Assembly: GCA_009914755.4 (NCBI GenBank)
Contig: CP086569.2
Location: forward strand, 21,472,001 to 21,536,000
Length of the DNA: 64,000 bases
Source: the human T2T-CHM13v2.0 reference genome, Homo sapiens
Reading direction: 5' to 3'
In this document: in pieces, positions 640 to 52,290 of the stretch
How positions within the stretch are numbered: position 1 is the stretch's first letter
Layout: each line of letters starts with the position of its first letter
Translations under genes and position numbers: made by a program
The notes under the pieces: model-generated
What the model was told of the DNA's origin: nothing
The model's input: only the letters and a program-made list of their open reading frames with translations
The model's database searches: none

Positions 640-1395
640 AGACTTTGTCTTGCATCTTGGGTACTAGGCCACAGTAGGATAGGGCAACTGGTCAGTGTTG
701 TGAGGCCCCACTATTTATAATAGCCAAGATTTTGAAACTACCTCAGTGGCCATCAACAGAAGGATGAATAAAGAAATGTGCTACAGATGCGACAGATTTC
801 TATTTAGCTATAAAAATAATTAGATCCTGTAACTTGTAACAACCCAGATGGAACTAGAGTTTATTATGTTAAGTGAAATGAGTTGGGTACAGATAGAGAA
901 ACTACACATGGTCTCACTTATCTGTGTCGGAGCTATAAGTTAAAACAATTGATATCATGGAAATAGAGCATGGAAGGGTAGATAATAGGCTGGTAAGGGT
1001 GTGAGAAAAGGGGGACAGTTAATGGAGCTATAAGTTAAAACAATTGATATCATGGAAATAGAGCATGGAAGGGTAGATAATAGGCTGGTAAGGGTGTGAG
1101 AAAAGGGGGACAATTAATGGATACCAACACTATTTGCAATGAGTGAATATTATCTAGTATATGCTACCACAATTGAGCATAGGTGAAAATAATTGTATTT
1201 TTAAAAAATAACTAGTCAAAATTAATTACATATTTTTAAATAACTAAAGGAATAGAAAGATTGTAACACAAAGGATAAATGCTTGAGGTGATGGATATGC
1301 CATTTGCTATTATGCATTTCATGGCTGTATCAAAATATCTCAAATAAGCCATTAAATGTGTGCACCTTGTTTGTACTTCCCCCAAAATTAAAAAT
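640..1395 (+). mobile_element. Old LINE-1 (L1M-type) 3'-end fragment
   Basis: Sense-strand similarity to L1M 3' terminal consensus (ccactatttataatagccaagatt...ccatcaacagaaggatgaataaagaaa...ggatggaactagag...ttaagtgaaat; later gaggtgatggatatg...caaaatatctcaaataa...aaaattaaaaattaaa). Recognised from memory of the L1 consensus; not aligned. Confidence 0.7.
929..1118. repeat. Two tandem copies of a 95 bp unit inside the L1M 3' end
   Basis: ggagctataagttaaaacaattgatatcatggaaatagagcatggaagggtagataataggctggtaagggtgtgagaaaaggggga... occurs twice back to back (929-1023 and 1024-1118) with one or two mismatches. Confidence 0.9.
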
Positions 1396-5460: not shown

Positions 5461-5995
5461 TAATACATTCAAATATAATATACCATGACGAGTGATTTTA
5501 TACAAAAATGCAAGGTCAAGATATCCAAATGAATAAATGTGATTTACCACATAAACATAATTAAAACAAAAACCATGTAATCAGAACAAATGCACAAAGA
5601 AGATAATGCCTCAAATTTTTTTCAAAAAGGTCATAGACAACAAACTCACAGCCAACATCATACTGAATGGAAAAGTTTGAAAGCATTATGTCTAAGAACT
5701 GACACAAGATAAGGCTGTGTCTACTATCACTCCTAGTATTTATCGTAGGAATAGTAGTTCTAGACAGAGAAGTCAGGCAAACAATGGAGACAAAAAGTAT
5801 CCAAATTTTTGGGAATGCAAAAGTTATACTTGCTTGCTGATAATATTTTATATGAAGAAACATCTTAAAAGTTCCACCAAAAACTGTTTGATAAATAAAT
5901 TTGGTTTCAGGATACAAAACCAATGTACAAAAATTAGTAATGTTTCTCTAAACAAATAACGATTCAAATCATTCATTCAAATAAGCACTCTGACT
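5460..5995 (+). mobile_element. Old L1 (L1M) ORF2 RT-region fragment
   Basis: Degenerate sense ORF2: ...catgtaatcagaacaaatgcac, gccaacatcatactgaatggaaaag ([10 protein letters not shown]), later QKISNVSLNK resembling QKSVAFLYTNN. Confidence 0.6.
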
Positions 5996-5999
5996 TTCC

Positions 6000-6560
6000 A
6001 GTGCCAGGCTTTTTTGGTTACTGAAGCCATGAAGTATTGTTTGAAGTTGAGTAATGTGATGTCTGCAGCTTTATTCTTTCTGCCTAGGATTGGTTTGGCC
6101 ATTGAAACTATTGTTTGATTTTAAATAGATTTCAAAATTGATTTTTCTAATTTCTGAAAAAAGTCATTGATAATGTGATAGAAATAGCATTAAACCTGTA
6201 AATTGATTTCGGCAGTGTGACTGTGTTAAAAATACTGATTCTTGCTCTCCATAGCATGGAATATATTTTTTAAAATCTCTGATTCCATTCATTAGTTTTG
6301 TAATTTACCTTGTAGACATCTTTTACCACCCTTGTTAGCTTTACTCATGAATATTTTACTCTTTCTGTGGCCATTTGATAGGATCATATTATCAGTTTGT
6401 TTATTAGCTTGGACCTGCTTGCTTTATAGAAAGCTATAGATTTTTGTGTATTGATTTTGCATCACAAAACTTTGCCAAAGCTACTTATCAAATTTAGAAG
6501 CTCCGGTCACAGATTATTAGGTTTTGAAAATTGTCAGTTCATGTATTTTGCTAGGGTTTT
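6000..6560 (-). mobile_element. Inverted 5' segment (ORF2 RT region) of a twin-primed L1PA/L1PB-type element
   Basis: Plus strand matches antisense L1 ORF2: gtgccaggcttttttggttac (cf. ctgccaggctttggtatcagg), aaaaagtcattgataatgtgatagaaatagcattaaacctgtaaattg...actgattcttgctctccatagcatggaatat (cf. gaaagtcattggtagcttgatggggatggcattgaatctataaatt...attgattcttcctatccatgagcatgg), gtgtattgattttgcatcacaaaactttgccaaagctacttatca. Confidence 0.7.
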
Positions 6561-6599
6561 TTAGGTATAGAATTCTAAGATCTGTACAAAAAGGTAGTT

Positions 6600-9500
6600 G
6601 GTTTCCTCTCTTCCTATTTGGAAGCCTTTATTTATCTTACCTGATTTATCTGGGTACTATCTTGAGTAAGAGTAGGAATCCTTTACAAAATCGATGTGCA
6701 AAAATCACAAGCATTCCTATTCACCAATAAACAAACAGCCAAATCATGAGTGAACTCCCATTAAGAATTACCACAAAGAGAATAAAATACCTAAGAATCC
6801 AACTTACAATGAATGTGAAGGACCTCTTCAAGGAGAACAGCAAATCACAGCTCAGCAAAATAAAAGAGGACACAAACAAGTGGAAGAAAATTCCATGCTC
6901 ATGGATAGGAAGAATCAATATCATGAAAATTGCCATACTGCCCAAGGTAATTTACAGATTCAGTGCCATCCCCATCAAGCTACCAATGAATTTCTTCACA
7001 GAATTGGAAAAAAAAACTACTTTAAAGTTCATACAGAAACAAAAAAGAGCCTGCATTGCCAAGACAATCCTAAGCAAAAAGAGCAAAGCTGGAGGCATCA
7101 CACTACCTGACTTCAAACTATACTGCAAGGCTACAGTAACCAAAACAGCATGGTACTCGTACCAAAACAGATATATTGACGAATGGAACAGAACAAAAGC
7201 TGCAGAAATAACACCACACATCTACAACCATCTGATCTTTGACAAACTTGACAAAAACAATCAATGGAGAAAGAAGTCCCATTTAATAAATGGTGCCGGG
7301 AAAACTGGCTAGTCATAGGTAGAAAGCTGAAACTGGATTCCTTCCTTACACTGTATACAAAAATTAACTCAAGATGGATTAAGGACTTAAGCATAAGGCT
7401 TAAAACCATAAAAAGCCTAGAATAAAACCTAGGCAGAGAATGATGGTTTCCAGTTTCATCATGTCCCTACAAAGGACATGAACTCATCATTTTTTATGGC
7501 TGCATAGTATTCCATGGTGTATATGTGCCACATTTTCTTAATCCAGTCTATCGTTGTTGGACATTTGGGTTGAACCATCATTCCCAGCAAGCTATCGAAA
7601 GGACAAAAAAAACAAACACTGCATGTTCTCACTTATAGGTCGGAATTGAACAATGAGAACACATGGACACAGGAAGGGGAACATCGCACACCAGGGACTG
7701 TTGCGGGGTTGGGGGAGGGGAGAGGGATAGCATTAAGAGATATACCTAATGCTAAATGACGAGTTAATGGGTGCAGCACACCAACATGGCACATGTATAC
7801 ATATGTAACAAACCTGCACATTGTGCACGTGTACCCTAAAACTTAAAGTATAATAATAATAAAATTTAAAAAAAAAAGTATGGAGATTTCTCAGAGAATT
7901 AAAAGTGGATCTAACATTCAATTTAGTAACCCCACTACTGAAAGGAAAAAAATCAGTATATCAAAAGGACACCTATGTTTATTGCAGCACAATTTACAAT
8001 TGCAAAGATAGGAAATAAGCCTGAGTGCCCATCACCTCATGAGTGGATAAAGAAAATATGGTGTATCTATACCATGGAATACTACTCAGGCACAGAAAAA
8101 TGAAATAGTGTCTTTTGCAGCAACATGAATGGAACTGGAATCCAGTTATTCTAAGTGAAGTAACTGAACTCAGGAATGGAAAACCAAATATTGCATTTTC
8201 TAATTTATAAGTGGGAACTAAGCTGTGGGCAAGCACAGGTATACAGAGTGGTATAATGGACATTGGGGACTCAGAATGTAGGAGGATGGATGGAGGATGA
8301 GGTATGAAAAATTACCATTTGGGTACAATGTACACCAGTCGGGTGATGGGTGCACTAAAACCCCAGACTTCACCACTGTACAATCTATCCATGTAAACAA
8401 AAACAACTTGCACTCCTAAAGCTATTGAAAATTAAAAAAAGGTAACATAGATGTTAAATAGAAACAACTAAATGTAAATATAATTATGTTGACTTATGTG
8501 GGGAATATTTAGAAGAATAACAAACAATAAAAAGTACAATTTTTGGTTAAAAAACAAAAACAAAAACAAAACACCAAACCTAGGCAATACCATTCAGGAC
8601 ATAGGCATGGGCAAAGGCTTCATGACTAAAACACCAAAAGCAATGGCAACAAAAGCTAAATTAGACAAATGGGATCTAATTAAACTAAAAAGCTTCTGCA
8701 CAGCAAAAGAAACTATGATCAAAGTGAACAGGCAACCTTCAGAATGGGAGAAAATCTTTGCAATCTACCCATCTGACAAAGGGCTAATATCCAGAATCTA
8801 CACAGAACTTAAACAAATTTAAAAAAAAAAAAAAAAACCCATCAAAAAGTGGGCAAAGGATATGAACAGACACGTCTCAAAAGAAGACATTTATGCAGCC
8901 AACAGACACATGGAAAAATGCTCATCATCACTGGTCATCAGAGAAATGCAAATCAAAACCACAATGAGTTATCATTTCATGCCAGTTAGAATAGCAGTCA
9001 TTAAAAAGTCAGGAAACAACAGATGCTGGAGAGGATTTGGAGAAATAGCAACACTTTTACACTGTTGGTGGGAATGTAAATTAGTTCAAACATTGTGGAA
9101 CACAGTGTGGCAATTCAGCAAGGATCTAGAACTACAAATACCATTTGTTTTACAAATAGAATCAGCGATCCCATTACTGGTATATACTCAAAGCATTATA
9201 AATCATGCTACTATAAAGACACATGCACACATATGTTTATTGTGGCACTATTCACAATAGCAAAGACTTGGAGCCAACATCAGTGATGGATTGGGTTAAG
9301 AAAATTTGGCCCATATACACCATGGAATACTATGCAGCCATAAAAAGGATGAGTTCATGTTCTTTGCAGGGACATGGATGAAGCTGGAAACCATAATTCT
9401 CAGCAAACTATCACAAGGACAGAAAACCAAACCCCGCATGTTCTCACTCATAACTGGGAGTTGAACAATGAGAACACATGGACACAGGGCAGGGAGCATC

Positions 9501-9690
9501 ACACACCAGGGTCTGTCACGGGTGGGAGCCTGGGGGAGGGATAGCCTTAGAAGAAATATCCAATGTAAATGATGAGTTATGTGTGCAGCAAACCAACAAG
9601 GCACGTGTATACCTGTGTAACAAACCTGCACATTGTGCACATGTACCCTGGAACTTAAAGTATAATTAAAAAAAAAAAAAAAAATAGAAA
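6600..9690 (+). mobile_element. L1PA/L1PB-type element, direct segment from mid-ORF2 to the 3' end with poly(A); interrupted at 7436-8576 by a nested insertion
   Basis: Sense ORF2 across both flanks: ORF 6746-7312 ([21 protein letters not shown]...[23 protein letters not shown]), ...ctagaataaaacctaggca at 7426-7435, resumed at 8577 as aacctaggcaataccattcaggacataggcatgggcaaagg. ORFs 8496-8822 and 8862-9260 ([34 protein letters not shown]...), L1PA-type 3' UTR, A26 tail at 9665-9690. Confidence 0.75.
7436..8576 (+). mobile_element. Nested L1PA insertion: inverted segment 7437-7573, direct 3' end with poly(A) 7574-7880, then a 700 bp co-inserted block (L1PB 3' end 7881-8450 plus unique sequence ending in an A-rich tail); flanked by 10 bp repeats aacctaggca
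   Basis: 7437-7573 is the reverse complement of L1 ...caacccaaatgtccaacaacgatagactggattaagaaaatgtggcacatatacaccatggaatactatgcagccataaaaaatgatgag...ggaaaccatcattctc. 7574 onward is sense L1 continuing accatcattcccagcaag...ggaattgaacaatgagaacacatggacacagg... to aaaatttaaaaaaaaaag. 7881-8450 is an older L1 ORF2 C-terminus and 3' end in sense. 8450-8576 holds aataaa at about 8527 and an A-rich tail. aacctaggca occurs at 7426-7435 and 8577-8586. Confidence 0.55.
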
Positions 9691-9699
9691 TCCTTGTCT

Positions 9700-10912
9700 T
9701 GTTGCAGTTCTTAAAGAAAATACTGCAAGCTTTTGCCTTGAGGATGTTGCTTGTTACTATTTTGAGGTATGTTCCTTTAATACCTAGATTTTTTCTTAGG
9801 ATCCTTAACATGAAGGGATGTTAAAATTTATCAGAAGCCTTTTTTTAATCCCTTTAGATAACTGATTGAGTTTTGCTTTTAGTTGTGTTTATGAGATGAA
9901 TCACATTGATTGATTTGTATGTGTTGTACCAACCATTTCAGAGATTAAGCCTATCGGTGGATTAATCTTTTGATATAATATTGGATTTGGTTTGCTAATA
10001 TTTTGTTGAGAAATTTGCATATATGTTGATCATAATGATAGCCTGAAATTTTCTTATTTTACTGTTGCTTTAACAGGATTTTATTATCAAAATGCTCCTG
10101 GCCTCATAGAAATAGCTGGAGAGGAGTCTCTTCTCTTCTTTTTTTTTTTTTTTTTTTTGAAATAGTTTTAGTGGAATGGCATCAACTTCTTTTTTATATA
10201 TATCTGGTAAAATTCAGCTCGTCCTGGGCTTCTTTTGGCTCATAAGCTTTATTACTGGTTCAGTTTTGTAACTCATTTTTACTTTATTCAGGATTTCCAT
10301 TTCTTCCTGGTTTAAAGTTGTGAGTTTGCTGGTTCTCAGACATTTATCCATTTTTATAATAGTCTCTGAGGGATTCTTTGTTTTTTCTCTCTGGTCAGTG
10401 GTAGTGTCATTTCTTATTATGTTTATTTTGATTTTTTTTGCTGTGTTAATTTAGTTAGTGACTGCTGATCTTACTTATTCTTTCAAACAACAAGCCCATG
10501 AATTGGTTGATCTTTTGTATGGTACTTCACATCTCTATTATGTTCAAATCAGCTCGGATTTTGGTTATTTCTTCATTTCTGCTAGATTTGTGGTTGGCTT
10601 GCTTTTTTTTTTTTTTCTGGTTCCCCTAGATATGGTGCTATGTTGCTAATTTGCAGTCATTCTCACTTTTTGTTGTGGGCATTTAACACTGTAAACTCCT
10701 TTTAACACTGTTTTAGCAGTGTCTCAGGGGTTTTATTATGTTGTACCTTTCTTTTCATCAGTGGCTAATAAATTCTTGATTTCTGCCTTATTTACTTAAA
10801 AGGTCCTTCAGGAACCAGTTGTTTAATTTCCATGTAATTGTATGGTTTTCCACAATATTCTTAGTATTCTTAGTATTGATTTCTTTCTTTCTTTTTTCTT
10901 TTCTTTTGTTGC

Positions 10913-29830: not shown

Positions 29831-32505
<2,675 letters not shown>

Positions 32506-35500
32506 ACAAAAGAATGTCTTTGGCCATTTTGGATTTTATGTGGTTTTATATAACTTATAGAATTCTTTTTTCTATTTCTGTGAAAAGTAATATCGTTGCA
32601 TTGATACTCCTAATCCATAAATATGGAACATTTTCCATCTTTTTGGTGCCCTTTTAAATTTCTTTTATTAATGTTTCATAGTTTTTATTATAGCTATCTT
32701 TCACCTCTTTAGTTAATTCCTAAGAGTTTAATTTTATGTTTCGCTTTTGTAAATGAAATTACTTTTTTGTTGCTTTTTCAGATTTATTGGAGTTGGCGTA
32801 TAGAAATGCTACAGATTTTTGTATGTTGATTTTGTATCCTGCAATTTTACTAAATTTATCAGTTCTAATAATCTTTTGTGAAATCTTAAGATGTTCAAAA
32901 TGTTCAATTTTATCAACTGCAAACCATGATAATTTGATTTCTTTATTCCCAATGTAATGTGATTTGTATCTTTCTCTTGTCTGATTGCTCTAGCTAGGGT
33001 TTTCGGAACTGTGCTTAATAATAGTGGTGACAGTGAGCATCCTTATTGTGTTCCAGATCTTAAACGAAAGTCTCGTCATTTTTTCCCCATTCAGCATACT
33101 AGCTGCATGTCTGGCATATATGACTTTTATTATGTTGAGCTATGTTTCTTCTAACTCAATTTTTTCAGGATTATTATAATAAAGAAATATTAAATGTTAT
33201 CACCTGATTTTTCAGCATCAATTGAAATGATCATATGATTTACATTTTTCATTTGTTGACATGATGTAGTACACTGATTTGCACATGTTGAGCCATCCAT
33301 TCATCCCTAGAATAAATCCCACTTGGTCATGATGAATGATTTCTCTAATGTGTTTTTGAGTTATGTTTGCCAATATTTTGTTGAGGATTTTTGCATCAAT
33401 ATTTATCAGAGATATTGGCCTGTGTTTTTCTATGGTTTTGATGTGTCTCATGTTTTGAAATCGGGTTAATGTAGGCCTTGCAGAATGAGGTTACAAGTAT
33501 TCTGTCTTCCACTATATTTCAGAATAGTTTTGCATAAGATCAGTATTCTTCTTTTAATGTTCAGTAGAATTCAGCGGACAAGCCATGAAGTCCCAGGTTT
33601 TTCTTACTGAGAGACATTTTATTATGATTCTAATTTCATTACTTGTTATTGGTCTATTCAGGTTTTGGATTTCTTCCTAGTTTAATTTTGGTAGGTTGTT
33701 TGTATCGGAATGTGTTCATTTCCTCCAGATTTTCTTAATTGTTGGCATATACTCTTCATAGTAGCCAAGAATAATCCCTCAAATTTATGTGGTATCAGTT
33801 GTAATGTCTGCTTTTTCATTTATAATTTTACTTATTTAAATCATCTCTCTTTTTTAGTCTTTCTAAAGGTGTCAGTTTTGTTTAACTTTTCAAAAATATC
33901 GATTTTTGTTTAATTGATCTTTTGAATTTTTTTAACTTCAATTTTGTATATTTCTGCTCTGATCTTTATTTTTTTTTTCTAGTTTTGGGTTTGGTTTGCT
34001 CTTGTTTTCTAGTCCTTAAGACGCATTGTTAGACTGTTTATTTGAAATTTTCCCCTTTTTTGATATAGGCACTTACAAACTTTCTTTTTAGTACTGCTTT
34101 TTTGTATCTCATAGACACATTATGTTTCCATTATCATTTGTTTGAAGAAAATTTTTAATTTTCTATTTCTTCATTTACCGTCCTGTTATTTAGGATCATC
34201 TTGTTTAAGTTCCCTGTATTCATTAATTTCCATTAACTTCCAAGCTTTCTCTTGTTATTAATTTCTAGTTTTATTTAATTGTGGTCAGAGAAGATGTTTG
34301 ATATTATTTAAATTTTTGAATATTTTAAGCGTTTTATGGCTTAACATATGGTCTATCCTTGAGAATGATCCATATACTGAGGAAAAACAATGTGTATTCT
34401 GCAGATCTTGAATGAAATACTCTGCAAATATCTACTACATACATTTGGTCTATAGTGTAGATTAAGTCTGTTGTTTCTTATTTTCTGTCTGAAAGATCTG
34501 TCCATGGCTGAAAGCAGAGTGTTAAAGTCTCCAGCTATTATTATTGTACTGGGGTCTATCTTTGTCTTTACCTCTAATTATATTTCCTGTATATACATGG
34601 GTGTTCCAGTTTGGGGGGATATTTATTTAAAGTTGTTATGTCATCTCATATCAAAACCATCTCAGACTTTGTTTGTCTAGAAAAGTCTTTATTTCTCCCA
34701 TTTGTTTGAAGGATATTTTCACCAGTTATACTATTCTAGGGTAACTTTTTTTCATCAGCATTTTAAATATATTATGCCACTCTCTCTTGGCCTCTGAGGT
34801 TTTCACTAAAAGTCTTCTGCTAGATGTGTTAGAACTCCTTTGCATGTTATTTGTTGTTTTTCTCCTGCTGCCTTTAGGATCATTTCTTTATCCCTGACCT
34901 TTGCAAGTTGGACTATTAAATGCCTTGAAGTAGCCTTCCTTGGATTAAATCTCTTGGGGTTCTATAACCTTCTTGTACTTAGATAGAGATATGTCTCTCT
35001 AGGTTTGGGAAGTTATCTGTTCTTATCCCTTTAAATAAACTTCCTACCTCTCTCTTTTTCCCCACCTTCTCTTTCAAGCCAATAACTCAGATATGCCATT
35101 TTTAGGCTATTTTATAGATCCTGTAGGCATGCTTTTTTTTTTCCTATTGTCTCTTTTGACTGTGTGTTTTCAAATAGCTGTCTTTAATCTTACTAATTCT
35201 TTCTTCTGCTTGATCCATTCTGCTATTAAAGGACTCTGAGGCATTTACCAGTAAGCCATTTGCTTTTATTATCTCAAGAATTTCTGCCTAATTATTTTAA
35301 ATTATTTTAATATTTTTGTTAAATATATCTGATAGAATCTGCATTTATTCTCTGTGTTATCTCTAATTTCTTTGAGTTATCTTAACACAGCTGTTTTGAG
35401 TTCTCCATCTGACAGGTCACGTATCTCTGTTTCTCCAGGATTGGTCCTTGGTGCATTATTCTGTTCATTTAGTGAGGTCACGTTTCCCTACATATTGTTT

Positions 35501-44186: not shown

Positions 44187-44237
<51 letters not shown>
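44187..44237. repeat. (T)51 homopolymer
   Basis: aatgaa + 51 T + gctggttgg, read directly. Confidence 0.95.
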
Positions 44238-46782: not shown

Positions 46783-47441
46783 GAGGTGGTTGACAGATGG
46801 TCAAGGCAGCCCCTTAGGCAGCTTAAGCATGCCCTGTGGAGCATCCCTGTAAGGGACCCCAGTCAACTTGGGTGACGCGGATCCTACGAGCACTGCCAGG
46901 TAGGCATTTGCTCAGGTAAAACACCTCATTGGAGTGGTGCAAGGCAGGACCCCGCAGATGATCAGTGCAGCTGCTGAACACCGGGAAGGAACCTGACACT
47001 TGGAGTCCAGACATCTGGAACATGGTAGGACTAATCCTGGGAACTTGCCCATTCCATTTGAGTGGAAGCATGGCCTGATCACCCATGATGTGCCTTTATA
47101 GGCAGTTTGGTCTCAGTTTTTATTTTGATTTGGCTTGGCTTATTTGAAAAAAGGGAAAGTAAATGTGAATGAATGCTTGTGTTTGAGATGGACACCTGAT
47201 GGACAGTGGTCACTGTCTAAAGTGAGTGTTGAGCCCCAAGCTGCAGTTCTGTAGGATACCTCATATGGCTAAGTGGTAGTTTGTGCTGGCACCTGGTACC
47301 AGTCTTTCTAAGCTAAGAGGATCTGAGATTCCCACGAGGGAAGTGACCAGTGATGGGAGAGTCGAGTGAGTGAATGCTTTACCCTTTCCCTTCTTGTGGC
47401 ATGAGAGTTGTTTTTCTCTCCAGGTGGAAGACGGGTGAGAG

Positions 47442-49065
47442 ACAAAGTAAGCCCACTCCATTAGGAACTATGTTAAAGAATTTCAGGAAAGGTTTTAATG
47501 GAGATTATGGAGTTACTATGACCTCAGGAAAACTTAGGACGTTGTGGGAGATATATTGGCTAGCATTAGAAGTGGCTTGGCCAAGAGAAGGAAGCCTAGA
47601 CAGGTCTCTTGTTTCAAAAGTACGGCACAAGGTAACAGGTATATCAGGACATATATCAGGACACCCAGACCAGCTTCTATACATAGATACCTGGTTACAG
47701 CTTGTATTAGCCCCCCACCAAGATGGTTGAGAGGACAGGCCGCAACAGTACTAGTAGCTACGGGACAGACAGCCAAGGAAGAATCCCACTCCACCAGCCA
47801 AGGAAAGTCAGCTCCTAAAGTCCTATCTGACAAGACATCAGAGGATTCATGGCAAGAAATAGCGCCAGTGACACTCACCTTTCATCAAGAAGGAAAGCTT
47901 CTCAATCCTAAGCCCAGTGTGCCTGAGCTTCCACAAGGCTTCATACACCTAAACCACCCAGAGTAGAGAAGGAAGGATGTGAGACCTTGGGAGAGACCCC
48001 CTCCCTTGGTAGCCTGTTTGAGGCCTAGAACTGGGACACAAATGCCCCTGAGAGAGCAACTGTATACTGAGGTAGACAAGGATGGTCATATGGTGGAAAG
48101 GCATGCCTTTGTTTACCAACCCTTCATCTCTGCTGATCTCAACTGGAAAAACAATACTCCATCCTATATTGAAAATCCTCAAGCTATAATTGATTTGCTC
48201 CAAACTATAATCAAGACCCACAACCCTACTTGGGTTGATTGCCACCAGTTGCTCATGTACCTCTTCCACACAGATGAAAGGAGGAGAGTGCTCCAAGCAG
48301 CAACTAATCACTTGGGGCAATTAGTTGGAGAACATGTTCTGGCTGATTACCAAAACCCCTAAGAGTACATACGGATCCAGTTACTAGAAAAAGACCCCCG
48401 GTGGGACTCAAATGAAAGACTGGGTATGCAAAGCCTAAACAGGTACAGGGAAGCCCTCTTGGAAGGGTTAAAGAAGAAAGTTCAGAATAACTCAAATGCT
48501 AACAAGGTCTCTGAAGTAATTCAGGGAAAAGAAGAAAGTCCAGCACAATTCTATGAGAGACTGTGTGAGGCCTATTGTATGTATACTCCCTTTGATCCTG
48601 ATAGTCCTGAGAATCAGTGCATGATTAACATGATTTTAGTTAGTCAAAGCGCAAAAAACATTAGAAGGAAGCTGCAAAAAACAGGCTGGGTTTGCAGGTA
48701 TGAATATACTTCACAGCTGTTGGAAATATGTTATCAGGTGTTTGTGAACAGAGATATGGTAAGCCATAGAGAGACTTGCAAAGAGAATGAGTGCCAGGCC
48801 AGACAGAATGCCGACTTGTTAGTTGTGGCTATGGTGAAGAAGGGGAGGTCCTGGAAAAAATACCCAGTCCAATCACCCATGCATGCAGTGTAACCAGTGT
48901 GCTTACTGTAAGGAAATAGGACATTGGAAGGACAAGAGCCCCCAGTTGAAAGGGGAACAAGGTGACTCTGAGCAGGGGGCCTCAGACAAGGATGAAGGAG
49001 TCTTGTTCAGTCTTGCAGAAGGGTTATTGGACTAAGGGGGACTGGGCTTAGGTGACCCCAACAAG
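47442..49065 (+). pseudogene. gag: gag (MA-CA-NC), disrupted; start codon mutated ATG>ACG
   Basis: acgggtgagagacaaagtaagcccactccattaggaactatgttaaagaatttc reads (M>T)GERQSKPTPLGTMLKNF. CA ORFs 47979-48362 (...PFISADLNWKNNTPSYIENPQAIIDLLQTIIKTHNPTWVDCHQLL...) and 48426-48893 (...QFYERLCEAYCMYTPFDPDSPENQCMINMILVSQSAKNIRRKLQK...). NC zinc knuckle CAYCKEIGHWKDK(S) at 48898-48939 with the last Cys lost. Several frameshifts. Confidence 0.8.
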
Positions 49066-49069
49066 CCCA

Positions 49070-49430
49070 TTGTCAGGATGACAATCAGGGGCAAGGACAT
49101 TGAGTTTCTTGTTGATACTGGTGCTGAACATTCAGTAGTAACCACCCCAGTCACCCCCTTATCCAAAAAGAATATTGATATAATCAGAACCACAGGGGTT
49201 TCCGCAAAGCAAGCTTTCTGTTTGCCCCAGTCCTGCAGTGTGGGTGGGGGTGGGGGGAGTGGGGCATGAGCTAATTCACCAGTTCCTGTACATGCCTGAC
49301 TGCCCCTTGCCTTTACTTGGAAGGGACCTACTTAGCAAGCTGACAGCCACTATCTCTTTTACAAAGCACAGCTCTTTACAGCTAAAGTTACCTGGAATGG
49401 GAGTCATAGTGGCCCTTTCGCTTCCTTAGG
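49070..49430 (+). pseudogene. pro: Protease (aspartic, DTGA active site retained)
   Basis: ORF 49078-49269: MTIRGKDIEFLVDTGAEHSVVTTPVTPL...; DTGA codons at 49114-49125. Confidence 0.8.
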
Positions 49431-49439
49431 AGGAAGGGA

Positions 49440-52290
49440 GACTCTACATAACTGAGCCAGGCCAAGAGATAGGACCAGCTGTGGCTAAGTGGTGGCCAAG
49501 GGTGTGGGTAGAAGACAACCTTCCAGGGTTGGCAATCAATCAGGCCCCTGTACTCATAGAAGTTGAGCCTGCAGCCCAGTTGGCCAGGCAAAAGTAGTAC
49601 CCAGTCTCCAGAGAAGATCTTGAGGGCATCCAGGTCTATCTCAAGTGCCTAAAGGCCTTTGGAATTATAGTCCCTTGTCAGTCTCCATGGAACACTCCCC
49701 TCCTACCTGTTCCCAAGCCAGGGACCAAGTACTACAGGCCAGTACAGGATTTGCACTTGGTCAACCAAGCTACAGTGACTTTGCATCCAATGGTACCTAA
49801 CCTGTACACATTGTTAGAATTCCTGCCAGCTGAGGACAACTTATTCACCTCCTTGGACCTGAAAGATGCTTTCTTTAGCATCAGACTAGCCCCTGAGGGC
49901 CCAAAACTGTTTGCCTTTCAGGGGGAGGATCCAGGGTCAGGTGTCATCACTCAGTACACTTGGACACGGCTCCCCCAAGGGTTCAAGTACTCCCCCACCA
50001 TCTTTGGGGAGGCACTGGCTCAAGACCCCCAGAAGTTTCCTTCCAGAGACCTAGGCTGCGTGCTGCTCCAGTATGTCGATGACCGCCTGCTGGGACAACC
50101 CATGGCAGTCTGGTGCACCAAGGGAATATACCCTTCTCCAACACCTGGAGAACTGTGGGCATAAGGTATCCAAGAAGAAAGCTCAGCTCTCCAGACAGCA
50201 GGTACGTCAGCTGGGATTTACTATCTGACAAGGGGAGCACAGCCAGAAAGAAAGCAAGTCATTTGCAACCTGCTGGAGCCTAAGACCAGAATGCAGGTGA
50301 GAGAATTCTTAGGAGCAGTAGAATTCTGCAGGTTGTGGATCCCAAACTTTGCAGTATTGGCTAACCCCGTGTATGGAGTCACAAAGCGGGGTGAAAAGGA
50401 ACATTTCAAATGGGGATCCCAACAGCAATGAGCTTCTCATTAGTTAAAAGAAAACCTCATGTCAGCCCCAGCCCTGGGGCTACCTGACCAGACAAAACCT
50501 TTTACACTATATGTGTCAGAGGGAGAATAAATGGCAGTTGGAGTTTTGACCCAGAGTATGGGGCCCTGGCCAAGGCTGATGGCCTAACTCTCTAAACAAC
50601 TAAAGGGGGTTTCTAAGGGTTGGCCCCATATTTGAGGGCCTTGGCAGCAACAGCCCTGCTAGCAAAAGAAGTGGATAAGCTAACTCTTGGGCAAAATCTA
50701 AACATAAAGGCCCCCCATGCTGTGGTCACTTTAATGAATACCAAAAAACATCATTTGCTAATGAATGCTAGACTAACTAGATACCAAATCTCGCTCTGTG
50801 AGAATCCCTGCATAACCACTGAAGTTTGCAACACCCTGAACCCTGCTACCTTGTTTCCAGTATCAGAGCCCAGTTGAACATGACTGTGTAGAGGCGTTGG
50901 ACTCAGTTTATTCTAGCAGACCTGACCTCTGAGACCATCTTTGGACAACAGTAGACTAGGAGCTGTGCATGGATGGGAGCAGCTTCATCATCCCACAAGG
51001 AGAGAGGTGTGCGGGATATGCAGTGGTAACCCGCACATTGAAATGCTGTCATTGAAGCCAAATCGTTGCCCCAGGGCACTTCAGCCCAGATGACCGAACT
51101 TACTGCTTTAATTCAGGCCTTAGAGCTAACTGATGGTAAGATTGTAAACATTTACACTGACTCTGGGCATGCCTTTTTAACTCTCCAAGTACATGGGGCA
51201 TTATACAAGGAAAAAGGCCTGTTGAACACTGGGGGAAAATACATAAAAGATCAGCAAGAGATCCTGCAATTATTAGAGGCAGTGTGGAGACCCCGAAAGG
51301 TGGCAGTCATGCATTGCAGAGGACACCAGTGAGCTTCCACCTCGATTTCCCTGGGGAACTCCCAAGCTGACTCAGAGGCTTGAAAATCAGTATCCACCCC
51401 CTACTGGGCATCAGTCACAGCCCCCCTGCTCCCTCAGGCACCTGACATTGTACCTACTTATTCTAAAGAAGAGAAGGACTTTCTTCAGGCAGAAGGAGGG
51501 CAAGTGATAGAAGAGGGAGGGATTTGGTTATTGGGCAGAAGAATAGCCATGCCGCAAATGCTAGGAGCCGCAGTCATACTGGCTGTGCATGAGACCATCC
51601 ACCTAGGACAAATGTCATTTGAAAAGTTGTTAGGCTGGTACTTCTACATCTTGCACCTGTCAGCCCTTGCGAAAACAGTGGTGCAGCAGTGTGTCACCTG
51701 CTGGCAACACAATGCTAGGCAAGGTCCAACAGCCCCTCCTGGCATACAGTCTTATGGAGCAGCCCCCTTTGAAGATCTCCAAGTAGACTTCACCGAGATG
51801 CCCAAACATGGAGGCAACAAGTATTTGCTAGTTCTAGTGTGTACATACTCTGGGTGGGTGGAGGCCTATCCAACACGGACTGAGAAAGCTTGTGAAGTAA
51901 CCCGCATGCTTCCCCGAGATCTCATCACTAGGTTTGGACTGCCCTTATGAATCAGCTCAGACAATGGCCCAGTGTTTGTGGCTGACTTGGTATAGAAGAC
52001 AGCAAAGCCATTGGGGATCACATGGAAACTGCACCTACCGACCACAAAGTTCTGGAAAGGTGGAGCGGATGAATCGCACTATCAAAAATAGTTTAGGGAA
52101 AGCGTGTCAAGAAACAAGATTAAAGTGGGTACAAGCTCTCCCTATGGTATTGTTTACAATTAGATGTACCCCTTCTAAAAGAATAGGATATTCCCCTTAT
52201 GAAATATTATATCATAGCCTCCTTCCCATACTATGGGGACTCCCAGGCACTCCTCGAGAGCTAGGTGAAATTGAGTTACAGTGACAGCTA
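49440..52290 (+). pseudogene. pol: pol (RT, RNase H, integrase), disrupted by stops/frameshifts
   Basis: RT ORF 49751-50164 (...LPQGFKYSPTIFGEAL...LLQYVDDRLL; YVDD at 50072-50083). RNase H ORF 51066-51332 (GTSAQMTELTALIQALELTDGKIVNIYTDSGHAF...VMHCRGHQ). IN ORFs 51504-51950 and 51934-52284 (HHCC zinc region, ...SGKVERMNRTIKNSL...). Confidence 0.82.

What the first reader, a model, noticed from the sequence alone, without database searches (positions are those of the whole stretch)
7436..8586. Nested L1 insertion with a twin-priming inversion that appears to carry about 700 bp of non-L1PA 3' sequence, a candidate 3' transduction
The flanks 6600-7435 and 8577-9690 form one continuous sense L1 ORF2 in L1 coordinates: ...ENLG | [13 protein letters not shown]. 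The motif aacctaggca is present once on each side, at 7426-7435 and 8577-8586. The 1.14 kb between them is therefore a later insertion with a 10 bp TSD.

Its structure is as follows:
- 137 bp of L1 in inverted orientation.
- The same L1 continuing in direct orientation to its 3' end and an A18 tail. The inverted and direct segments overlap by about 12 nt at the junction, which is the classic twin-priming signature.
- Then, still inside the TSDs, an older L1PB-like ORF2 C-terminus and 3' end (7881-8450).
- Then about 125 bp of unrelated sequence containing AATAAA (about 8527) and ending in an A-rich tract right at the TSD.

The simplest explanation is read-through of the source L1's weak polyadenylation signal into downstream genomic sequence (3' transduction) at the source locus. 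If so, the transduced segment would be a tag for finding the progenitor element.
Basis: partly seen in the sequence, partly recalled or inferred. Interest (0 to 1): 0.6.

Follow-up and report, generated by a model that had tools for sequence, protein, structure and literature searches.

The report
Nested inverted L1 with likely 3' transduction
A 1.14 kb block inside an older primate L1 is one retrotransposition event: a 5'-inverted young L1 tail that most likely dragged about 670 bp of its source locus's downstream DNA along. This is a textbook and unremarkable kind of L1 insertion.

Summary
The flanks 6684-7435 and 8587-9684 are one continuous L1 ORF2. They align without a gap to human ORF2p residues 802-1170 across the junction. 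An exact 11-nt duplication, AAACCTAGGCA (7425-7435 and 8576-8586), brackets a 1,140-bp insert.

The insert reads:
- inverted L1PA, 7436-7572 (137 bp)
- direct L1PA, 7573-7860
- a short A/T tail, AAAATTT+A10 (not A18)
- a much more divergent non-L1PA L1 3' end, 7878-8440
- 108 bp found nowhere else in the window, with AATAAA at 8526-8531
- a 27-nt A-rich tail that starts 17 nt after that hexamer

The inverted and direct arms overlap by 13 nt in L1 coordinates, which is the twin-priming pattern. No sub-block has target-site duplications of its own.

The best reading (about 0.8) is a single L1 event: a read-through transcript (3' transduction) inserted with twin priming. The decisive test is a paralog of 7878-8548 lying directly 3' of a source L1PA. 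I could not run it because no primate genome is reachable with these tools. Rivals are a second retrocopy landing in the first tail, and reverse-transcriptase template switching.

This is an ordinary instance of known L1 biology, so interest is low.

The parts
6684..7435 (+). Outer, 5'-truncated L1PA-type element, left part (ORF2). The host of the insertion.
   Evidence: Translation aligns to human ORF2p from residue 802 onward, 80% identity over 802-1170. It has its own flanking repeat, TAGGAATCCTT 6673-6683 and TAGAAATCCTT 9685-9695.
7425..7435 (+). 5' copy of the target-site duplication, AAACCTAGGCA
   Evidence: Exact 11-nt repeat of 8576-8586.
7436..7572 (-). Inverted arm of the inserted L1PA (ORF2p Q1210-L1255), 137 bp
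   Evidence: Identity to other L1PA copies on the opposite strand: 97% to 32094-32231, 90.5% to 18346-18482, 89.8% to 9285-9401. It is 35/37 aa identical to human ORF2p.
7573..7860 (+). Direct arm of the inserted L1PA: end of ORF2 (from about E1251/T1252) and the 3' UTR, including its own AATAAA at 7858
   Evidence: Aligns to 32219-32511 (87%), 9389-9684 (82%) and 18357-18069 (85%). It starts 12-13 nt upstream, in L1 coordinates, of where the inverted arm ends.
7861..7877 (+). Internal short tail of the L1PA, AAAATTT + A10
Evidence: Read directly from the sequence.
7878..8440 (+). 3' end of a divergent, decayed non-L1PA L1 (L1PB/L1MA-type): ORF2 from about V1157, its own 3' UTR and an A7 tail. 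The first part of the putative transduced DNA.
   Evidence: 51% aa identity to human ORF2p 1157-1266, with stops and frameshifts. It is only 68-72% identical in DNA to L1PA copies over 7969-8217, and its 3' UTR does not align to them.
8441..8548 (+). Non-repeat sequence found once in the window, with AATAAA at 8526-8531. The second part of the putative transduced DNA.
   Evidence: No other match in the window. It holds the first canonical AATAAA after the L1PA's own signal; the hexamers in between, at 7898 and 8431, are ATTAAA.
8549..8575 (+). Terminal A-rich tail, AAAAAACAAAAACAAAAACAAAACACC
   Evidence: Starts 17 nt after the end of AATAAA and abuts the 3' copy of the duplication.
8576..8586 (+). 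3' copy of the target-site duplication, AAACCTAGGCA
8587..9684 (+). Outer L1PA-type element, right part (rest of ORF2, 3' UTR, A17 tail)
   Evidence: Continues ORF2p without a gap from the left part. The C-terminus aligns to ORF2p 1153-1274.

Best explanation
One L1 endonuclease-dependent, target-primed reverse transcription event put a chimeric RNA into an older 5'-truncated L1PA-type element.

1. The RNA came from a source L1PA elsewhere in the genome. That source had itself inserted into an older L1 of a different lineage.
2. Transcription ran past the L1's weak AATAAA (7858) and past two ATTAAA hexamers. It was cleaved and polyadenylated about 17-23 nt after the first canonical AATAAA downstream (8526).
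3. The transcript therefore carried about 671 nt of source-locus flank: the old L1 tail plus 108 nt of unique DNA.
4. First-strand synthesis primed on this new poly(A) at a T-rich nick (bottom strand GGTTT/TATT or GGTTTT/ATT). It copied the flank, the source's genomic A/T tail and the L1 3' UTR back to about ORF2 codon 1251.
5. The second target end primed internally on the same RNA and copied codons about 1255 down to 1210.
6. Joining the two cDNAs produced the 5' inversion with a 13-nt duplication.
7. The staggered target nicks gave the 11-nt duplication.

Shown: the duplication, the contiguity of the host element, the arm coordinates and overlap, the position of the poly(A) signal relative to the tail, and the absence of duplications around sub-blocks.

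Inferred: that 7878-8548 was contiguous with the L1PA at a source locus.
For: - An exact 11-nt duplication sits at both ends, and the host L1 is ungapped in ORF2p coordinates.
- The inverted arm abuts the 5' duplication. The arms overlap by 12-13 nt when measured on three independent L1PA copies.
- The extra DNA lies between the L1's own tail and the terminal A-tract, inside the single duplication pair.
- The A-tract starts 17 nt after the first canonical AATAAA downstream of the L1's own. The chance of such placement is about 2.4%.
- There are no direct repeats of 6 nt or more around the young L1 alone, the old L1 plus unique block, the old L1 alone, or the unique part alone.
- The carried L1 fragment is far more divergent than its carrier: 51% versus 95% aa identity to human ORF2p over the same span. 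It is unlikely to have moved by itself into a younger element.
- From the literature, about 25% of L1 insertions carry a 3' transduction, transductions typically end 10-30 bp after a poly(A) signal, and 21-46% of insertions traced by transduction to the eight most active source L1s also have a 5' inversion (PMC13009371).
Against: - The source locus was not found, so the defining evidence for transduction is missing.
- The window holds no second copy of 8441-8576.
- A second retrocopy landing in the first insertion's poly(A) tail would have duplications made only of A's. These would be invisible, so the structure alone cannot exclude a two-step history.
- No clean microhomology is visible at the 5' junction or at the inversion junction (read).
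- The nick site matches the TTTT/AA consensus only approximately.
Confidence: 0.8

Rival explanations
1. Two sequential retrotranspositions. The twin-primed L1PA inserted first, with the AAACCTAGGCA duplication. Later a 5'-truncated retrocopy of an unrelated polyadenylated transcript (old L1 fragment plus unique DNA, ending at the 8526 signal) was inserted in the same orientation into the first element's poly(A) tail. Its own duplications would be made only of A's.
For: - Poly(A) tails present the T-rich bottom strand that L1 endonuclease prefers (established knowledge).
- A10 lies on the left (7868-7877) and an A-rich tract on the right (8549-8575). They could hide A-only duplications.
- The signal-to-tail spacing is explained equally well.
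Against: - It needs two independent events in the same roughly 20-30 bp. The second would be a rare class, a non-Alu, non-L1PA retrocopy of non-coding DNA.
- The terminal tract looks like one regular (A5C)n tail, with no sign of a composite.
- 3' transduction is common, at about 25% of insertions (PMC13009371), so a single event is much the more economical reading.
Confidence: 0.08
2. Template switching or RNA ligation during a single event. Reverse transcription started on a polyadenylated cellular RNA mobilised in trans (old L1 fragment plus unique DNA). It then jumped to, or had been ligated to, the 3' poly(A) end of an L1PA RNA, and finished with twin priming. The result mimics a transduction without any source locus where the two are adjacent.
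For: - L1 reverse transcriptase forms chimeric insertions by template switching or by copying ligated RNAs, within one pair of duplications (PMC13174262).
- The single duplication pair and the internal A-run are compatible with this.
Against: - Catalogued chimeras place the partner RNA at the 5' end and the L1 at the 3' end. Here the L1PA is 5' of the partner, which is the opposite order.
- It requires trans-mobilisation of a non-L1PA RNA as the first template, which is disfavoured by L1 cis preference (established knowledge).
- The interrupted internal tail AAAATTT+A10 looks more like an aged genomic tail than a fresh RNA poly(A). This is weak evidence.
Confidence: 0.07
3. The reverse order of sequential events. 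The old L1 fragment with its 3' flank inserted first into the outer L1, making the AAACCTAGGCA duplication. The young twin-primed L1PA then inserted exactly at its 5' boundary.
For: L1PB and early L1PA lineages are thought to have coexisted (PMC9252281), so an old-lineage L1 inserting into an early L1PA is not excluded by age alone.
Against: - The young L1PA block 7436-7877 has no flanking repeat of its own.
- It would have had to land precisely between an intact 5' duplication and the first base of the earlier insert.
- In twin priming the inverted arm is expected to abut the event's own 5' duplication, and here it abuts AAACCTAGGCA.
Confidence: 0.02

Closest known systems
L1 3' transduction (partnered transduction: read-through of the L1 poly(A) signal; Moran 1999, Goodier 2000 and Pickeral 2000 from my own knowledge; summarised in PMC13009371)
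   Same: - L1 3' end with a short tail, then non-L1PA DNA, then a downstream AATAAA followed 17 nt later by a terminal poly(A).
- All of this lies inside one pair of target-site duplications.
- The length, about 670 bp, is within the usual range.
   Different: - The source locus is not identified here.
- The carried DNA is mostly an older L1 fragment rather than unique sequence, so only about 108 bp is a clean tag.
- The event is an old, fixed-looking insertion nested in another L1, not a recent L1HS event.
Twin-priming 5' inversion of L1 insertions (Ostertag and Kazazian 2001, PMC311219, as cited)
   Same: - The inverted arm sits next to the 5' duplication and the direct arm runs to the poly(A).
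- The breakpoints coincide in L1 coordinates with a small (13-nt) duplication.
   Different: - The inverted arm is short (137 bp).
- No clear microhomology is seen at either junction.
- The first-strand primer site is the poly(A) of a read-through transcript rather than the L1's own tail.
Chimeric L1 insertions by template switching or RNA ligation (U6/L1, Alu/L1, mRNA/L1; PMC13174262)
   Same: Two different RNA-derived sequences, in the same orientation, within one pair of duplications.
   Different: - Known chimeras have the partner 5' of the L1 and the L1 supplying the 3' end and tail. Here the order is reversed.
- The partner carries its own poly(A) signal and tail.

Membership tests
Endonuclease-dependent L1 (TPRT) insertion | Target-site duplication flanking the whole insert | tested here: met
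   Exact 11-nt AAACCTAGGCA at 7425-7435 and 8576-8586. The host L1 is ungapped in ORF2p coordinates once one copy is removed.
Endonuclease-dependent L1 (TPRT) insertion | Poly(A) tail at the 3' end, abutting the 3' duplication | tested here: met
   A 27-nt A-rich tract at 8549-8575, directly before 8576.
Endonuclease-dependent L1 (TPRT) insertion | First nick at a TTTT/AA-like site on the bottom strand | tested here: inconclusive
   The reconstructed target is ...GAATA|AAACCTAGGCA|ATACC... This gives bottom-strand GGTTT/TATT, or GGTTTT/ATT if one A belongs to the duplication. It is T-rich and close to the consensus but not an exact match (read; the consensus is from established knowledge).
Twin-priming 5' inversion | Inverted arm lies between the 5' duplication and the direct arm | tested here: met
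   7436-7572 is antisense L1 and starts at the first base after the duplication. 7573 onward is sense L1.
Twin-priming 5' inversion | The 3'-most L1 coordinate of the inverted arm coincides with the start of the direct arm, with a small duplication or deletion | tested here: met
   Overlap of 12-13 nt on three reference copies: 32219-32231, 9389-9401 and 18346-18357. The duplicated AACCATCATTCTC and AACCATCATTCCC match at 12 of 13 positions.
Twin-priming 5' inversion | Microhomology between target end and internal priming site, or at the inversion junction | tested here: inconclusive
   At most 1-2 nt of ambiguous identity at either junction (read).
L1 3' transduction | Non-L1 or foreign DNA between the L1 3' end and the terminal poly(A), inside the same duplications | tested here: met
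   7878-8548 (671 bp) lies between the L1PA tail (7861-7877) and the terminal tail (8549-8575). No sub-block has its own flanking repeats of 6 nt or more.
L1 3' transduction | Transduced segment ends 10-30 nt after a downstream poly(A) signal | tested here: met
   AATAAA at 8526-8531 and the tail from 8549. This is the first canonical AATAAA after the L1's own at 7858. Chance placement is about 2.4%. The 10-30 bp criterion is from PMC13009371.
L1 3' transduction | Transduced segment matches the DNA immediately 3' of a source L1 at another locus | not testable with these tools
   - No second copy in the window.
- The metagenome and prokaryote-genome scans returned only a chance 22-mer match in a bacterial gene.
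- The viral scans returned nothing.
- The protein collection holds no ORFs from this locus.
Template-switch or ligation L1 chimera (U6/L1 type) | Partner RNA at the 5' end, L1 providing the 3' end and poly(A) | tested here: not met
   Here the L1PA is 5' and the partner (old L1 plus unique DNA with its own AATAAA and tail) is 3'. The architecture of known chimeras is from PMC13174262.
L1PB subfamily (label given to 7878-8440) | Best match to an L1PB consensus rather than L1MA or L1PA | not testable with these tools
   No repeat consensus library is available. What is shown: 51% aa identity to human ORF2p, 68-72% DNA identity to L1PA copies, and a 3' UTR that does not align to L1PA.

The most novel reading that the evidence does not exclude
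The block is not a transduction. It is a 'reverse-order' L1 chimera. ORF2p began on a cellular polyadenylated RNA mobilised in trans, jumped onto the poly(A) end of an L1PA RNA, and then completed the insertion by twin priming. This architecture (L1 on the 5' side of its partner) is not among the catalogued L1 chimeras.
Probability: 0.07. Interest if true: 0.35.

Novelty: already known. Interest (0 to 1): 0.1.

Why it matters
It matters little beyond annotation. If the transduction is confirmed, the 108-bp unique tag together with the copy-specific old-L1 sequence would point to the progenitor L1PA locus. That would date one source-offspring pair in primate L1 history. The locus is also a clean worked example of three-level nesting (old antisense L1, then L1PA, then the chimeric insert). 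It shows an 'older inside younger' repeat order, which repeat-chronology methods would misread unless transduction is taken into account. It opens no long-standing question.

Tried and rejected
1. **Source locus or orthologs through protein collections.** Exact look-up of 10 ORFs from 7400-8822, including ORFs that span each junction, found none in the collection. A composite query of antisense ORFs from the transduced block returned no hit at E<=0.001. The collection evidently does not hold ORFs from primate non-coding DNA.
2. **Exact 22-mer from the unique segment in metagenome and prokaryotic genome contigs.** Each scan gave one hit. Both hits are the same bacterial coding sequence, matching only over the 22-mer. 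BLAST of L001 against the window found nothing at 1e-20. Direct reading of both loci shows no similarity beyond the 22-mer.
3. **Two viral-contig scans** (unique 29-mer and tail/old-L1 junction 27-mer) found nothing.
4. **Subfamily consensus sequences from the literature.** The supplement of PMC9252281 holds no sequences. The labels 'L1PB' and the L1PA number therefore remain unassigned.
5. **Idea that the outer L1 is itself twin-primed,** because antisense L1 lies just 5' of it at 6400-6683. Rejected. The outer L1 has its own 10/11 duplication (6673-6683 and 9685-9695), and the antisense element continues on the far side at 9696 onward. It is an older L1 that was interrupted.
6. **Idea that the L1PA copy at 29900-32521 is the source.** Rejected. 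It is 5'-inverted and truncated, and its 3' flank does not match 7878 onward.
7. **Rfam scan of the window** gave no match.

Full report
**What the window is.** The DNA is AT-rich primate-type sequence. The tools here are built around prokaryotic and viral collections. Most of the work was therefore done on the window itself, using other L1 copies in the window and the solved human ORF2p structures as coordinate references.

**Checking the observation.**
- The motif AACCTAGGCA is at 7426-7435 and 8577-8586 as reported. The exact repeat is one base longer: AAACCTAGGCA at 7425-7435 and 8576-8586. The only other occurrence in 64 kb is at 31408, at the equivalent position of another sense L1.
- I joined 6600-7435 to 8587-9690 and translated. 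The result reads ...[23 protein letters not shown]... It aligns without any gap to human L1 ORF2p residues 802-1170 (8uw3_A, E=3e-196, 80% identity).
- The two flanks are therefore one L1 interrupted by a 1,140-bp insert (7436-8575) with an 11-nt target-site duplication.
- The outer element runs 6684-9684 and ends in A17. It has its own 10/11 duplication (TAGGAATCCTT 6673-6683, TAGAAATCCTT 9685-9695). It interrupts a still older antisense L1. The locus is therefore nested three levels deep.

**Anatomy of the insert.**
- 7436-7572 (137 bp) is L1 on the minus strand. It is 97% identical to 32094-32231, 90.5% to 18346-18482 and 89.8% to 9285-9401. It encodes ORF2p Q1210-L1255, with 35/37 residues identical to human ORF2p.
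- 7573-7860 is sense L1 from about codon 1251 through the 3' UTR.
- On each of three reference copies, the inverted arm ends 12-13 nt downstream of where the direct arm begins (32231 vs 32219, 9401 vs 9389, 18346 vs 18357). The duplicated string is AACCATCATTCTC, and the two copies match at 12 of 13 positions.
- The L1 ends in AAAATTT + A10 (7861-7877), not A18.
- 7878-8440 begins exactly at ORF2p V1157 (VWRFLRELK...). It continues through a decayed ORF2 C-terminus with several stops and frameshifts, then a 3' UTR that does not align to any L1PA copy, and an A7 tail. Its identity to human ORF2p is 51%. DNA identity to L1PA copies over 7969-8217 is 68-72%.
- 8441-8548 matches nothing else in the window.
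- AATAAA sits at 8526-8531. The A-rich tract AAAAAACAAAAACAAAAACAAAACACC starts at 8549 and runs up to the 3' duplication.

**Mechanism.** The inverted arm touches the 5' duplication, and the arms meet in L1 coordinates with a small duplication. This is the arrangement expected from twin priming. One cDNA is primed from the nicked bottom strand on the poly(A). A second is primed from the other target end at an internal site of the same RNA. The two are then joined.

The remaining 671 bp lie between the L1's own tail and the terminal poly(A), inside the only pair of duplications. I tested every sub-block for flanking direct repeats of 6 nt or more: the young L1 alone, the old L1 plus unique DNA, the old L1 alone, the unique DNA alone, and each arm alone. 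None was found.

Between the L1's own AATAAA (7858) and the end of the block, the only signal-like hexamers are two ATTAAA (7898, 8431) and then the canonical AATAAA at 8526. The tail begins 17 nt after its end. In this window an AATAAA falls in such a 21-nt span about 2.4% of the time. A recent long-read study summarises that about 25% of L1 insertions carry 3' transductions and that these typically end 10-30 bp after a poly(A) signal. It also reports that 21-46% of the insertions traced by transduction to the eight most active source L1s also have a 5' inversion (PMC13009371).

The most economical reading is a single event. A read-through transcript of a source L1PA, which had itself inserted into an older L1, was polyadenylated at the 8526 signal and inserted with twin priming.

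**What is not shown.** The defining evidence for transduction is a paralog of 7878-8548 directly 3' of a source L1. I could not obtain it.
- The window has no second copy.
- Exact look-ups of ten ORFs across the insert and a composite protein search found nothing.
- The viral scans were empty.

Three rivals remain.
- **Second retrocopy in the first tail.** A polyadenylated cellular transcript is inserted into the first element's poly(A) tail, so its duplications are all A's and invisible. The structure cannot exclude this. It needs two rare coincidences.
- **Template switching or RNA ligation.** This would join a cellular RNA mobilised in trans to the 3' end of an L1PA RNA. Catalogued L1 chimeras have the opposite order, with the partner 5' and the L1 3' (PMC13174262).
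- **Reverse order of sequential insertions.** This is effectively excluded. The young L1 has no duplications of its own, and it would have had to land exactly between an intact duplication and the first base of the earlier insert.

I put the single-event transduction at about 0.8.

**Family labels.** No consensus library was available; a literature supplement I checked held no sequences. I therefore cannot confirm 'L1PB' or assign L1PA numbers.

From memory only: the inner L1's 3' UTR string GCTAAATGACGAGTTAATGGGTGCAGCACACCAACATGG and its CCCTAAAACTTAAAG ending resemble mid-age L1PA families. The outer element's CCCTGGAACTTAAAG resembles the older CCCTAGAACTT type.

Nesting alone proves that the insert is younger than the outer L1. 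L1PB and early L1PA lineages are reported to have coexisted (PMC9252281; PMC1914374). Age alone therefore does not forbid an old-lineage L1 inside an L1PA. The argument rests on structure.

**Verdict.** The nested-insertion and twin-priming parts of the interpretation are shown. The 3' transduction is the best-supported but unproven explanation. All components are textbook L1 biology, so this is an ordinary, already-known kind of feature with low interest.

Noticed in passing
window 29900-32521: A second L1PA with a 5' inversion. 29900-31352 is antisense and 31352-32521 is sense. On the long minus-strand L1PA copy at 18060-20684 the two arms map to 19235-20684 and 19228-18060, so the breakpoints lie about 6 nt apart. 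This is another twin-priming-type inversion. Its ORF2 end is 97% identical to the inverted arm at 7436-7572.
   Followed up: partly
window 5990-6683 and 9696-9900: The outer L1 (6684-9684) has its own 10/11 target-site duplication, TAGGAATCCTT / TAGAAATCCTT. It interrupts an older antisense L1 that continues on both sides, giving three levels of nesting.
   Followed up: partly
window 44187-44237: A perfectly pure run of 51 T. The sequence next to it is not Alu-like. It lies at the edge of the GC-richer 44-53 kb stretch. Its origin was not determined.
   Followed up: no
window 47370-52290 (+): A series of broken ORFs with gag-like, reverse-transcriptase (LPQGFKYSPTIFGEALA) and integrase-like translations. 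This is a decayed endogenous retrovirus, identified by eye only.
   Followed up: no
window 929-1121: A 95-bp unit repeated twice in tandem at 98% identity.
   Followed up: no
L001 5968-5989; L002 5420-5441: The 22-mer GTTGACTTATGTGGGGAATATT from the unique segment occurs by chance in one bacterial coding sequence. That sequence is present both in a metagenome contig and in a Candidatus Deferrimicrobium MAG. There is no similarity beyond the 22-mer.
   Followed up: yes
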